A DNA stretch of 64,000 bases, taken from positions 95,356,001 to 95,420,000 of the forward strand of contig OZ024746.1 in assembly GCA_964016885.1 (NCBI GenBank), written 5' to 3'. Shown in pieces: positions 4,690 to 59,065 of this stretch; the first letter of the stretch is position 1; each line of letters opens with the position of its first letter. Made by a program: the position numbers and the translations under genes. Below the pieces are notes generated by a model. That model was not told where the DNA came from. It searched no databases and was given only the letters and a program-made list of their open reading frames with translations. Source of the DNA: Eledone cirrhosa. Lineage: Eukaryota.

Positions 4690-5147
4690 CACATTACCAA
4701 CACCACTACCTTCCAGGGGCCCAATGGCCACTCCCTCCTTGTCCGGCACCCCTTTCACTGCACCTCCTCCAGCCTTGTGTATGGACTTCACTGCACGGAG
4801 TGCGGTGCAACCTATGTCGGACAGACGGGACCCCGACTGGTTCGCCAAACACCTCAGTGACATCCACCTTGACCTGTGTTCTCCCATCGCCCGACACTTC
4901 TGCTCAGCCGGTCATTCCACTCACAAGCTGACTTTTTTATATTTATTTTTATATTTCCCTTCCTTTTGTGTTCTTTACTTGTTAACTTCCCTCCTTCCAA
5001 CCCTACAAACTCCCTTTCGGTATTCCTCTCAACTTTCCTGATGAAGGACTTAATTCCGAAACGTCGAAACCTCCTCCACTTTCATCAAGTGTGAACCTAA
5101 TACAACTGTGTACAATTGACTCCTGCGTTTTGTTTGTGCTTTTCAAC
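4690..5147 (+). mobile_element. Penelope-like element 3' end (GIY-YIG endonuclease remnant plus pLTR)
   Basis: Frameshifted HCTSSSLVYGLHCTECGATYVGQTG...FAKHLSDI...SPIARHF...H follows the PLE GIY-YIG pattern. A hammerhead motif and (TA)n follow. Confidence 0.85.
5034..5069 (+). ncRNA. Minimal type-I hammerhead ribozyme
   Basis: TTTC-CTGATGA-A-GGA-CTTAAT-TCC-GAAA-C-GTC-GAAA: stem I TTTC/GAAA, palindromic ACGT stem III, GUC cleavage triplet at 5063-5065. Confidence 0.8.
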
Positions 5148-5284
5148 TATATATATATATATATATATACACACATACATACAGGCATAGTACCCATAAA
5201 AAATGACAAGGTTTATAGGAAAAAATACTTAGTTCATTAATTCCTAGATTATAACATTCTATATAAAGATGCTCAAATGCTCGA

Positions 5285-6957
5285 ATTTCTGCCATCTCTG
5301 TATTTCAGCCATCACTGTATTTCTGCCATCTCTATATTTCTGCCATCACTGTATTTCAGCCATCTCTATATTTCTGCCATCTCTGTATTTCAGCCACCAT
5401 TGTATTTCAGCCATCTCTATATTTCAGCCATCACTGTATTTCAGCCATCACTGTATTTCAGCCATCACTGTATTTCAGCCATCACTGTATTTCAGCCATC
5501 TCTATATTTCAGCCATCACTGTATTTCAGCCATCTCTATATTTCTGCCATCTCTGTATTTCAGCCACCATTGTATTTCAGCCATCTCTATATTTCAGCCA
5601 TCACTGTATTTCAGCCATCACTGTATTTCAGCCATCACTGTATTTCAGCCATCACTGTATTTCAGCCATCACTTTATTTCTGCCATCACTATATTTCTGC
5701 CATCACTGTATTTCAGCCATCACTGTATTTCAGCCATCACTGTATTTCAGCCATCACTGTATTTCAGCCATCACAGTATTTCAGCCATCACTTTATTTCT
5801 GCCATCACTATATTTCTGCCATCACTGTATTTCAGCCATCACTGTATTTCAGCCATCACTGTATTTCAGCCATCACTGTATTTCAGCCATCACTGTATTT
5901 CAGCCATCACTGTAATTCAGCCATCTCTATATTTCAGCCATCACTGTATTTCTGCCATCACTGTATTTCAGCCATCACTGTATTTCAGCCATCTCTATAT
6001 TTCTGCCATCACTGTATTTCAGCCATCACTGTAGTTCTGCCATCACTGTATTTCAGCCATCACTGTATTTCAGCCATCTCTATATTTCAGCCATCACTGT
6101 ATTTCAGCCATCACTGTAATTCAGCCATCTCTATATTTCAGCCATCACTGTATTTCAACCATCTCTATATTTCAGCCATCACTGTATTTCAGCCATCACT
6201 GTATTTCAGCCATCTCTATATTTCAGCCATCACTGTATTTCAGCCATCTCTATATTTCAGCCATCACTGTATTTCAGCCATCTCTATATTTCAGCCATCT
6301 CTATATTTCAGCCATCACTGTATTTCAGCCATCACTGTATTTCAGCCATCACTATATTTCAGCCATCACTGTATTTCAGCCATCTCTATATTTCAGCCAT
6401 CACTGTATTTCAGCCATCACTGTATTTCAGCCATCTCTATATTTCAGCCATCTCTATATTTCAGCCATCTCTATATTTCAGCCATCACTGTATTTCAGCC
6501 ATCACTGTATTTCAGCCATCTCTATATTTCAGCCATCACTATATTTCAGCCATCACTGTATTTCAGCCATCACTGTATTTCAGCCATCACTGTAATTCAG
6601 CCATCTCTATATTTCAGCCATCACTGTATTTCAGCCATCTCTATATTTCAGCCATCACTGTATTTCAGCCATCACTGTATTTCAGCCATCTCTATATTTC
6701 AGCCATCACTGTATTTCAGCCATCTCTATATTTCAGCCATCACTGTATTTCAGCCATCACTGTATTTCAGCCATCTCTATATTTCAGCCATCTCTATATT
6801 TCAGCCATCACTGTATTTCAGCCATCTCTATATTTCAGCCATCTCTATATTTCAGCCATCACTGTAATTCAGCCATCTCTATATTTCAGCCATCTCTATA
6901 TTTCAGCCATCTCTATATTTCAGCCATCTCTATATTTCTGCCATCACTGTATTTCAT
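5285..6957. repeat. 17-bp minisatellite (ATTTCAGCCATCACTGT / ATTTCAGCCATCTCTAT), about 98 units
   Basis: Directly visible. The 17-aa periodicity in all three + frames follows from the 17-bp period. Confidence 0.97.
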
Positions 6958-7021
6958 TTTGCATACATTTCAATCAATTTACACTAATTTTCTTCCATAT
7001 CCATCCATCAATCAATCTAAC

Positions 7022-7308
7022 TAACTGTAACTCTGCTCAACACAGAGTTAAAGATTTTGGCCAAGGTGTTAGCAGCAAGGCTGGCACTTGTCGAGAACCT
7101 GGTAGGGGAAGCCCAAACGTGTGCAATCCCGACCAGGTCCATACACGTCAACCTCCACCTCATGTGATACATCATAGAGAAGGCAGGGTGTAAACCTGGC
7201 TTTGATGGGGCTCTGATCAATTTAGATCAGTCTAAGGCATTTGATAGGGTCGACCATCAATACTTGGAAGCAGTTCTCAAGGTGGCCGGCTTCGGTCCCG
7301 TCTTCAGA
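7022..7308 (+). mobile_element. L1/Tx1-clade RT fragment
   Basis: Reads VTLLNTELKILAKVLAARL...EAQTCAIPTRSI...LINLDQSKAFDRVDHQYL. Confidence 0.8.
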
Positions 7309-7490
7309 GATATCAATGATATTAATAAATGGAAACTATATTTATAAAACCATATTTATTTTATTATATATATTTCAAGGGTACCAAAACTTTGGTACGC
7401 TCTCATCAGATAAAATACAAAGTTTGTTTTATAAATATTGACATAACCAGGAAAGAAGAACTTAACGGTTCAAGTTTTTCCTGGATAGTG
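7309..7490 (-). mobile_element. Single arm of the hammerhead-bearing pLTR family (same family as 20393-20823)
   Basis: Near-identical to 20393-20570. The minus strand carries CTGATGAGAGCGTACC...GGTACCCTTGAAA. Confidence 0.8.
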
Positions 7491-56665: not shown

Positions 56666-56850
56666 TATAAAATTTAACATAGAAATGGCTTTTACAGGAC
56701 TAGAACCGTTTCATTTGAAGGAAATCAATGATTTCCTTTGAATGAAACAGTTCTAGTCCTGTAGAAGCCATTTCTATATTAAATTTTATATATACTCTAC
56801 TAATGTATTGAGTACCTTACTTACTGTGGTTACCCCTGATAGAACCCGGG
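56666..56850. repeat. Palindromic pLTR-like element, family 2, second copy
   Basis: Arms 56666-56790, homologous to 42225-42400. Confidence 0.75.
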
Positions 56851-57434
56851 ACTCACATACATATATATATCAATCAGGTTCCTGCAACTAGTGCAGCCAG
56901 TCGTCAGAGTGCCACTCTACATGTTTGACTATGTGTCCATCTTGGCATTTCAGTGGGCCTTAGAAATGCTTGGTGGCGCCCATCTCCTCTCCAAGCATCC
57001 AGTCACTCATTAGGCTTAGTGTGCTAGCAGAAGAGGTTCCTGGGGTAAGGCTGAATAATGTCCTGGAGCCAAAAGTGAGGGGTCAGGAGAGAATCAGTGT
57101 ACCCATCCACACCTAAGAATGTCACTGCCAGACATCAAGGTATTCATCATCATCATCATCATTTAACGTCTATCTTCCACACTAGCATGGGTTTAGACGG
57201 GAATTGTCCCACTTGAGGCAAGATTGGTTGGGTGACCATGCCTCGCTCGTATAGGACTGTCTGGCAGGTTTTCTATGGCTGGATGCCCTTCCTAACACCA
57301 ACCACATTTACAGTGTTACCTACATGGTCACATTACCACATATTTATATATATATATATACACAAATATATATATATACAAATATACATATATGCAAATA
57401 TATATATATAAATAAATAAATAATATAAATATAT

Positions 57435-57610
57435 ATATCCATGATATTAATAAATGGAAACTATATTTATAAAATAAATATGGTTTTATAAATATAGTTT
57501 CCATTTATTAATATCATGGATATTATACTCCGGGTAACCTGTTGAGTGCTTCGAATCTGTTATAATAAATAAATTTGTTGAATTACCAACAAATTAAATA
57601 TCTCTTTGCT
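57435..57610. repeat. Short palindromic copy of the 20393 family (40-bp arms, no hammerhead)
   Basis: Arms 57435-57523 with the same tail TATACTCC...GTTGAGTGCTTCGAATCTGTTATAA, within (TA)n. Confidence 0.8.
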
Positions 57611-59007
57611 TATATATATATAAGACCGCATATGACTCAACTAGAATGTAAACAAATCTAAAAGAAATCCATGCTATCCAGACCCAAGCAAATGCAGCCC
57701 ACGATCCAATCCACAAAACTCTACTGCATCGGCTATAAATAACATTCAAACATGCCTTCCAAAACCTTACCCCAGCCTTCTCAAGCAAATAACCAACCTG
57801 TTCTAATTACTGGTATGGGGAGGGGGATGATGGACTATATATATAGTTTTTCTGATGATTTTATTAGGCATACATTGTATTTAAAATTGAGTGACACAAC
57901 TTCAAGTGATTAGCAATTCTTAGACACCTTAATCAATGAAACAATTGTTAATACTGTAAATAAAACCCTTCTTGTACTGTTGACCATGTTATTCTTCACT
58001 CTTTCACCATTTCACTATTATTACTCCAAGATTAACCTGCATAGGAATTCCCGAGAACTCGCAACCTAACTAAGGAAACCTGCCGTTCGTTAAAACTATC
58101 CACAATACAGAGTATTCACAACCTCTAACTGGATTACCTATAACGATAATTTGTTATCCTATATATATATATATATAAAATCATCATCCTATATATATAT
58201 ATATATATATATATATATATATATATATAAGGAGAGAAGGAGAAATGTCTTTTACTCCAACTCAGATCCAAATGAGACATATTTCTCTCATTATCTATCC
58301 TCTCCACTCTCCCAGATCCTATTACAAAATATCCTTCTTCCCCTAACCTGACTCCCACTCCTACGGGAACACCTTTCCTGCCTACATGTTCTCCACAAAC
58401 ACCAAAACATCAATCTGCAAGTGGCTAAGCTGAACAATAATTTCATTAATAATCTGGGTGGTGGGGAGGCCTGCCCGCAAGGGACTATGGCCACTGTTTC
58501 TCTGTTTTGGACTTAGTAATGGCACAAGGCTAGCAATTTAGAGGCGAGGAGGAATCAATCAAATTTACCTCAGTAGTTAACTGGTACTTTATTTTATTAA
58601 CCCCCAGAAGGATTAAAGGACTAAACAAAAAAGAGACAAATAAGGAAATAGAATGATATTGGAAAAGAGGGTGAGGAAAGGAGAGAGAGAGAGAGATAGA
58701 AAGAAAAAGAGCAAGCAAAATATTGTTATGCACATCATTAGCATATATATATATATATATATTTATATTTATATTTATATATATATATATATTTATATAT
58801 ATTTACACTCTGCACACTACAGGCGCCTTAACTCTGGAATACAACCCACACAAGACAGACCTCGTAACACCATTTAGTGCTTTGAACATCATGCAGACTT
58901 TAACTGACATCGACCGTGGTAGAAGATGCTAAATGTTAGGTCGCCCTCATGTCTCTGATTTTCAGCCCCATGGATTTTGTCTATTATATTCCTTTGTTAT
59001 AATTCGA

Positions 59008-59065
59008 ATACCTGATGATGTCACCGGATTCATACTGAACCCGGTCATTGAAATGATCATAGTAT
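59008..59065 (+). ncRNA. Type-I hammerhead ribozyme candidate
   Basis: ATAC-CTGATGA-TGTCACCGGATTCATACTGAACCCGGTCATT-GAAA-TGATCA-TA-GTAT: 4-bp stem I, long stem II (ACCGG/CCGGT, TTCA/TGAA), palindromic TGATCA stem III. Confidence 0.7.

What the first reader, a model, noticed from the sequence alone, without database searches (positions are those of the whole stretch)
5034..59065. Window-wide pattern: at least 6 unrelated microsatellite-associated families share hammerhead cores, often at a palindrome axis
Seen: HHR or HHR-like cores at 5038, 8773, 20640 (and the 7309 copy), 42287 (and the 56666 copy), 54799, 54980 and 59012 in otherwise dissimilar sequences, nearly all next to (TA)n. In four palindromes the symmetry axis falls on or beside the CUGANGA box. 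Established: PLEs carry HHR-bearing pLTRs and often insert with an inverted partial pLTR. Inference: a diverse, probably under-annotated population of short ribozyme-bearing retroelements, with fold-back switching biased to the ribozyme. This is my best candidate for an undescribed system here.
Basis: partly seen in the sequence, partly recalled or inferred. Interest (0 to 1): 0.75.

Follow-up and report, generated by a model that had tools for sequence, protein, structure and literature searches.

The report
Penelope stubs meeting at capped starts
The hammerhead-like motifs are real and are the ends of several Penelope-like jumping-gene families, a known arrangement; their mirror-image copies likely meet where the element's capped RNA begins rather than because of the ribozyme, which would show which RNA strand these elements copy and how they build their palindromes.

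Summary
The hammerheads are real: 4 strict type I hits against 0 in 60 shuffles. They fall into seven repeat families, but not an undescribed system. They are pseudo-LTR stubs of Penelope-like elements (PLEs). Families A and C join Hydra-clade ORFs elsewhere in the genome, B, D and E carry Hydra-type hammerheads, and 8773 and 5038 sit behind GIY-YIG remnants. Head-to-head copies in (TA)n with a one-sided tail are published PLE anatomy. Ribozyme-guided fold-back is not supported as a rule: the axis lies at the core in B, C and D (31/38, 10/22, 13/25 palindromes) but not in A (0/23) or E (1/9). Arm ends peak instead at a family-specific initiator-like A. In family C an untemplated G precedes it (G:A 1,874:1,059, against 232:942 one base upstream), and 17 of 31 sampled multi-base centres carry it on both arms. 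This points to two run-offs from capped, uncut sense RNA; no RNA data were available. This scan noted the same reading earlier on other DNA of this genome.

The parts
4754..4918 (+). Frameshifted GIY-YIG-like remnant upstream of the 5038 hammerhead
   Evidence: Translation read by eye; the one frame scanned had no Pfam hit
5034..5069 (+). Minimal type I hammerhead (unpaired base before stem II, 4-nt palindromic stem III, predicted cut after 5065), family G
   Evidence: Strict descriptor hit; architecture as in PMC4209133
7310..7574 (-). Family A single arm without tail (-165 to +100 from the core), core at 7409, predicted cut at 7365
8702..8948 (+). Family F PLE 3' end with minimal hammerhead-like core at 8773; stem I not paired in this copy
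   Evidence: copy L177 has a GIY-YIG domain upstream, Pfam E 6.8e-6
20388..20826 (.). Family A head-to-head palindrome in (TA)n; intact hammerheads at 20492(-) and 20640(+); axis about 20566; tail 20740-20823 on the right arm only
27806..28004 (.).
42218..42400 (.). Family B palindrome; core at 42287 with one core change; arms start at -5 and +5; partial tail on the right
54638..54858 (.). Family C palindrome; cores with A at position 4 at 54799(+) and 54787(-); arms start at -5 and -8; tail on the left arm
54866..55040 (.). Family D palindrome abutting the family C copy; core at 54980; arms start at -6 and +4; tail on the left arm
56666..56855 (.). Family B palindrome; both arms start inside the core (+3, +4); full tail on the right
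57430..57613 (.).
58911..59121 (+). Family E solo stub without tail, starting at -101; core at 59012, 8-nt palindromic stem III; ends in (TA)n

Best explanation
These are short pseudo-LTR stubs of several Penelope-like retrotransposon families, single or head-to-head, and the palindromes likely arise when both nicked strands of an AT-rich target each prime a copy of capped, uncut sense RNA and both copies run off at or short of its start. Shown: PLE identity for A, C and F by joined ORFs; one tail per palindrome; family-specific peaks of arm ends at an initiator-like A; an untemplated G before that A in family C, often on both arms. Inferred: that the peak is a Pol II start, that the G is the copied cap, that the two primers start at the two sites flanking the tail (shown in vitro for another PLE), and that longer copies come from priming at the 3' pLTR or from a jump to it. 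The axis falls at the hammerhead only where the predicted start happens to be the first base of stem I (B, C, D).
For: L332 is pLTR+tail, ORF with RRLRW, DKT and CxCX5C motifs, 3' UTR, pLTR without tail; L331 and L333 join family C to such ORFs. 108 of 117 palindromes have exactly one tail. Arm-end peaks: A -79, B -8, C -5, D -8, E -114 from the core; in the in-script references A, C, D and E all read Y-C-A-(C/G)-T there, and D has a TATA-like run about 30 nt upstream. Ends within 10 nt of the core: A 0 of 48 unbiased arms (4.4 of 39 expected if uniform, p 0.01), E 0 of 29 tail arms and 1 of 8 partner arms. Genome-wide, family C: G before +1 in 2,318 copies, 444 of them explained by the commonest partner-arm overlap, A in 1,059; one base further upstream G 232, A 942 (odds ratio 7.2). 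52 of 67 sampled G arms are untemplated against 9 of 30 A arms. Of the first 50 of 284 palindromes with both arms ending at +1, 17 of 31 multi-base centres read C..G, against 2 G..C and about 1 expected. The tail arm is the shorter one in 21 palindromes and the longer in 9, which self-copying of one cDNA cannot give. In vitro, a PLE nicks and extends both strands, starts at two sites flanking the tail and uses uncut RNA (PMC11167929). Cap-derived G is known for L1 and SVA (PMC3287187, passages).
Against: No RNA evidence: the start, the cap and the cleavage are not observed. The peak is not a limit: 25,487 of 28,864 family C copies that reach +1 have the native pyrimidine before it, and 26 of the first 30 run on upstream; 21 of the first 30 family A copies do too. 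The G excess is established for family C only. In A the G can be templated by the partner arm, and the pooled local test (13/23 vs 39/156) is confounded in the same way. B has no known upstream sequence. In A and E the peak also sits at the base of a hairpin, so structure-dependent stopping is not excluded. B, D and E were not joined to an ORF. Samples are about 30 best-scoring or first-listed copies per search.
Confidence: 0.7

Rival explanations
1. The reverse transcriptase stalls at folded RNA stems (hammerhead stem I, or a 5' hairpin in A and E) and the cDNA folds back on itself or anneals there, so RNA structure sets the axis.
For: In B, C and D the peak is the first base of stem I; in A and E it is the base of an 8-bp hairpin (sequence). 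6 of 20 loci from a targeted search join through the 5-nt stem I complementarity; a few palindromes turn in stem II (L113, L215, L223, L287).
Against: No excess of ends at the core in A or E. It explains neither the initiator-like motif nor the untemplated G on both arms. In 21 of 30 unequal palindromes the tail is on the shorter arm, as it is in 4 of the 6 stem I joins (read by eye).
Confidence: 0.15
2. Self-priming on an antisense transcript makes the head-to-head palindromes, as proposed for rotifer Penelopes.
For: Proposed in PMC3846280 (passages) from palindromes at inverted junctions, intron retention and two-way promoter motifs.
Against: The extra G lies before a sense-strand initiator-like A and occurs on both arms. 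In vitro work used sense RNA.
Confidence: 0.07
3. The stubs are copies of ribozyme-cut or circular RNAs (non-LTR retrozymes), so junctions mark the cleavage site.
For: Animal retrozymes are proposed non-autonomous PLE derivatives (bioRxiv 10.64898/2026.07.22.740005, part 1 of 5). Family E has a non-coding body and a partial tandem (L557). G precedes the family C cut site 34 times against 14 one base upstream.
Against: Window copies are single or inverted, not tandem arrays, and are colinear through the cut site. Ends within 2 nt of the cut: A 0/48, B 1/68, C 4/52, D 1/55, E 0/9. Family C has A at core position 4 in 31 of 34 copies.
Confidence: 0.08

Closest known systems
Hydra clade of C-terminal EN+ Penelope-like elements, incl. 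Hydra-1_Obim (Craig et al. 2021, PMC8557442; passages, section 11, supplement metadata, hammerhead table and search passages seen)
   Same: Hammerhead in the pLTR with core ending GAT/GAG and TGAA or similar; short stem III; (TA)n targets; inverted truncated copy with a one-sided tail; RW, DKT and CxCX5C motifs in joined ORFs; the Hydra-2_Amil tail shows the same CTCTAC..TATTGAG motif as B and D (compared by eye).
   Different: These families' sequences were not found in that supplement (6 motifs, 0 hits). Tails are 50-135 nt rather than 30-40. Start-site peaks and the extra G are not discussed in the passages seen. Family C has A at core position 4.
Minimal hammerheads of metazoan PLEs (Cervera and de la Pena 2014, PMC4209133; part 1 of 4 read)
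   Same: 5038 and 8773 have the short stem I, unpaired base before stem II and palindromic stem III; the paper already notes opposite-strand pairs 100-700 bp apart and many single motifs from truncated PLEs.
   Different: No analysis of axis position in the part read.
Poseidon of Anolis in vitro (Frangieh et al. 2024, PMC11167929; parts 1-2 of 4 read)
   Same: Both strands nicked and extended in AT-rich DNA; two internal start sites flanking the tail; uncut RNA is the main template.
   Different: Other clade; the parts read do not treat palindrome formation or capped ends.
Penelope of Drosophila virilis and Adineta vaga (PMC2377424, PMC3846280; passages)
   Same: Promoter and initiator inside the pLTR; inverted pLTR with palindromic junction.
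   Different: The Adineta paper favours antisense self-priming; the evidence here favours two sense, capped templates.
Animal non-LTR retrozymes (bioRxiv 10.64898/2026.07.22.740005; part 1 of 5 read)
   Same: Type I hammerheads, PLE-related, non-coding in the case of family E.
   Different: Defined as tandem repeats with two or more hammerhead units; the window copies are not tandem.

Membership tests
EN+ Penelope-like elements | pLTR - single RT+GIY-YIG ORF - pLTR layout | tested here: met
   Family A, L332 (ORF broken by stops, frameshifts and an insertion); family C, 5' join L331 and 3' join L333. Not shown for B, D, E.
EN+ Penelope-like elements | Inverted 5'-truncated copy with a tail on one end only | tested here: met
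   108 of 117 palindromes have exactly one tail
EN+ Penelope-like elements | GIY-YIG endonuclease recognised by profile | tested here: inconclusive
   Pfam PF01541 above cutoff for family F (L177, E 6.8e-6), below cutoff for L334 (E 0.0013), none for L332, L333 or window 4676-5038 (6 of 8 queries without a hit)
Hydra clade | RWK-like, DKT and CxCX5C motifs | tested here: met
   Read by eye in L332 (all three), L331 (RW, DKT) and L333 (CxCX5C), against the description
Hydra clade | Canonical type I hammerhead in the pLTR | tested here: met
   A passes the descriptor; B, C, D, E family references form three stems in the format of the published table; C has a core change at position 4
Hydra clade | Insertion into (TA)n | tested here: met
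   6 of 9 cited sites within 200 nt of (TA)5+; most fetched copies end in TA or CA runs (not counted)
Hydra clade | Generally under 3 kb | tested here: not met
   L332 spans about 4.4 kb including both pLTRs and an insertion; one copy only
Hydra clade | Phylogenetic placement of the RT | not tested
   No reference Hydra proteins were held as tool sequences
Non-LTR retrozymes | Tandem array of two or more hammerhead units | tested here: not met
   No such array among 81 tandem-repeat rows; one partial tandem of family E elsewhere (L557)
Non-LTR retrozymes | Circular RNA and self-cleavage | not testable with these tools
   Needs RNA reads or an assay

The most novel reading that the evidence does not exclude
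Penelope-type palindromes are made by twin priming on capped sense RNA: tens of thousands of stubs record each family's transcription start with a fossil cap G, on both arms in many cases. This would settle the sense-versus-antisense question against self-priming and show that the enzyme reads through an uncut hammerhead, which in a very abundant family carries a changed core base.
Probability: 0.6. Interest if true: 0.65.

Novelty: new member of a known kind. Interest (0 to 1): 0.47.

Why it matters
The elements are ordinary members of a known class, so the proposed new system falls away. What remains of value is mechanistic. How PLEs build head-to-head ends, which RNA strand they copy and what the hammerhead does are called open in PMC8557442, PMC3846280 and PMC11167929. 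A position-specific extra G on both arms gives exact predictions for CAGE and for an in vitro assay. I did not find this reading in print in three searches; most subscription journals are not searched, and Repbase or Dfam annotation could not be checked. An O. vulgaris repeat annotation lists 31 recently active Penelope-like families and does not use the words hammerhead or ribozyme (PMC13282606, passages).

Tried and rejected
Rfam gave only microRNA-type hairpin matches below gathering score. Free-energy folds of eight window stretches were significant only for family A (z -3.6); the others ranged from -1.3 to +0.9 and do not test a hammerhead. Sequencing runs: no RNA holder listed; laying four contig sets of unrecorded kind could not show starts, ends or expression. 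Pattern searches for a tail-to-ORF join of B (15 matches) and E found no ORF join; the E search served instead as an unbiased sample. The first E mapping failed through a reference error and was redone. An antisense GIY-YIG reading upstream of family A was dropped once the sense ORF was found. The pooled local cap-G test was set aside as confounded by partner-arm overlap. Counts at the family C cut site use a subfamily-limited pattern and cannot be divided by the start-site counts. A homolog search with the L332 C-terminal part gave 2 unnamed proteins without useful Pfam hits. PMC3088659 (passages) does not mention U4A; it says U4C lowers activity in vitro. The 7728-8040 inverted repeat holds CTGATGA but no following GAAA stem and was rejected as a hammerhead. 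Target-site duplications were not assessed because of the TA flanks.
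Full report
Setting. The window is G000:C6:95356001-95420000 in a 3.0-Gb assembly, AT-rich and full of LINE remnants and satellites. Positions below are counted from the C of the CUGANGA core.

Observation. A type I hammerhead descriptor passes four sites with an exact core (5038, 20640, 20492, 7409) and none in 60 local dinucleotide shuffles; with one mismatch 42287 is added (5 hits, shuffle mean 0.22). The other cited copies are decayed or cut short, but their families form three stems. 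Rfam detects none. Four palindromes turn at the core as stated; three more PLE palindromes in the window do not. Six of nine cited sites are within 200 nt of (TA)5+, against 20% of the window.

Families. Searches of the genome gave six families plus the 5038 copy: A (20640, 20492, 7409, 57430), B (42287, 56728), C (54799), D (54980), E (59012), F (8773, 27806). One 15-mer of C has 28,864 exact matches, control 6. All of A-E read stem I, core, stems II and III, cut site, stem I', then either (TA)n or a tail and (TA)n. B and D share a tail motif and A and C an upstream 12-mer, so they are not unrelated.

Identity. L332 is a whole family A element: pLTR with tail, an ORF broken by stops and frameshifts with RRLRW, KSDKT and CxCX5C motifs, a 3' UTR, and a second pLTR without tail. 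Family C is followed directly by a similar ORF start in L331 and preceded by the endonuclease end in L333; five more C loci have that end upstream in sense. These motifs, the (TA)n preference and the hammerhead format match the Hydra clade (PMC8557442; compared by eye, no tree). F has a Pfam GIY-YIG domain upstream in L177; 5038 follows a GIY-YIG-like remnant seen by eye. Long E copies share about 1.8 kb with no ORF over 119 codons and no hit to the Hydra-type proteins, and in one copy (L559) the tail runs straight into that body, so E is likely non-autonomous. B and D were not joined to an ORF. Inverted truncated copies with a one-sided tail, and opposite-strand hammerhead pairs from truncated PLEs, are published.

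Where the axis lies. I mapped arm ends in 249 insertions (270 loci; 21 dropped as repeats of one insertion, segmental duplicates, tandem or internally deleted copies). The axis is at the core in B 31/38, C 10/22, D 13/25, A 0/23 and E 1/9 palindromes. Sets anchored on the core are biased, so I also counted tail-anchored arms and partner arms: within 10 nt of the core are A 0/48, B 56/68, C 22/52, D 29/55, E 1/9. A separate genome-order sample of E gave 0 of 29 tail arms and 1 of 8 partner arms (partner arms of divergent subfamilies were missed). Ends peak at A -79, B -8, C -5, D -8 and E -114. In A, C, D and E this is the A of Y-C-A-(C/G)-T in my references, an initiator-like motif (name recalled; TCACT is called Inr-like in a rotifer pLTR). 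Ends at the predicted cut are rare (0-4 per family). So the ribozyme is at the axis only where the peak coincides with the start of stem I.

Extra G. In family C the base before +1 is a pyrimidine (native) in 25,487 copies, G in 2,318 and A in 1,059; 444 of the G cases are explained by the commonest partner-arm overlap. One base further upstream the counts are G 232 and A 942 (odds ratio 7.2). I fetched 60 of the first 100 G places, leaving out most of the overlap class: 52 of 67 arms have an untemplated G, 13 are partner-templated and 2 are point changes. Of 30 A places, 9 are untemplated. Among the first 50 of 284 palindromes with both arms ending at +1, 17 of 31 multi-base centres have the G on both arms, 2 the reverse, about 1 expected; 18 of 19 single-base centres are G or C, which is ambiguous because C is native in one subfamily. 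An untemplated G at full-length 5' ends is attributed to the copied cap in L1 and SVA.

Mechanism. Exactly one arm has the tail in 108 of 117 palindromes, and among tail-anchored palindromes the tail arm is shorter in 21, longer in 9 and equal in 16 (p 0.04). A cDNA copying itself cannot put the tail on the shorter arm or a cap mark on both arms. With the in vitro result that a PLE nicks and extends both strands and starts at two sites flanking the tail on uncut RNA, the simplest model is two primers, two run-offs on capped sense RNA, then joining of the two cDNA ends, often by short overlaps. Longer copies would come from priming at the 3' pLTR or a jump to it; this step is inferred only.

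Against. No RNA data. The peak is not a wall: 26 of the first 30 C copies and 21 of the first 30 A copies that reach +1 continue upstream. The G is shown for C only; in A it can come from the partner arm. In A and E the peak is also the base of a hairpin. A minority of joins use stem I (6 of 20 in a targeted search). Samples are small and capped by the tool.

Novelty and verdict. Known class, new family members, and a mechanistic reading that I did not find in print but that earlier notes of this scan proposed for other windows of this genome. Those notes gave me the lead; the counts above are my own. The supplement of the bioRxiv retrozyme preprint was not seen and may list related families. 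Interest 0.47.

Noticed in passing
window 54799 and family C genome-wide: Core position 4 is A, not U, in 31 of 34 copies not selected on the core; one 15-mer with this change has 28,864 exact matches. Activity unknown.
   Followed up: partly
L559 (G000:C1:174154900-174162500), L553, L554, L557, L558: Family E looks like a non-coding element of about 2 kb between pLTRs, with a partial tandem in L557: a likely non-autonomous PLE.
   Followed up: partly
window 54638-55040: A family D palindrome abuts the tail-less end of a family C palindrome; different families often insert next to each other in TA runs (also L070, L080, L138, L144, L209).
   Followed up: no
window 59146-59256: 111-nt palindrome with (TA)n at its centre and flanks and no hammerhead core; a similar stretch lies upstream in L231.
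   Followed up: no
window 7728-8040: 313-nt element with terminal inverted repeats, MITE-like, holding CTGATGA without a hammerhead fold.
   Followed up: partly
window 4507-4568: 62-nt palindrome made from an abundant SINE-like repeat.
   Followed up: no
window 11594-14815, 10044-11285, 16816-19901: Long ORF remnants of APE-RT LINEs (RTE-like by recall), in opposite orientations, forming long imperfect inverted repeats.
   Followed up: no
L299 and L140: Short tandem reiterations of the first 20-45 nt of the D and E hammerhead region, as from repeated jumps near the 5' end.
   Followed up: no
G000:C1, listings: Many family A and C copies come in opposite-strand pairs 1-5 kb apart, that is long palindromic insertions.
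   Followed up: no
window 5285-6956, 33476-35637, 36641-38838, 42550-44671: Satellite arrays of 17, 73, 44 and 48 nt units.
   Followed up: no
L335:3386-3934 (-): 183-codon ORF resembling a Pif1/Helitron helicase end (by recall).
   Followed up: no
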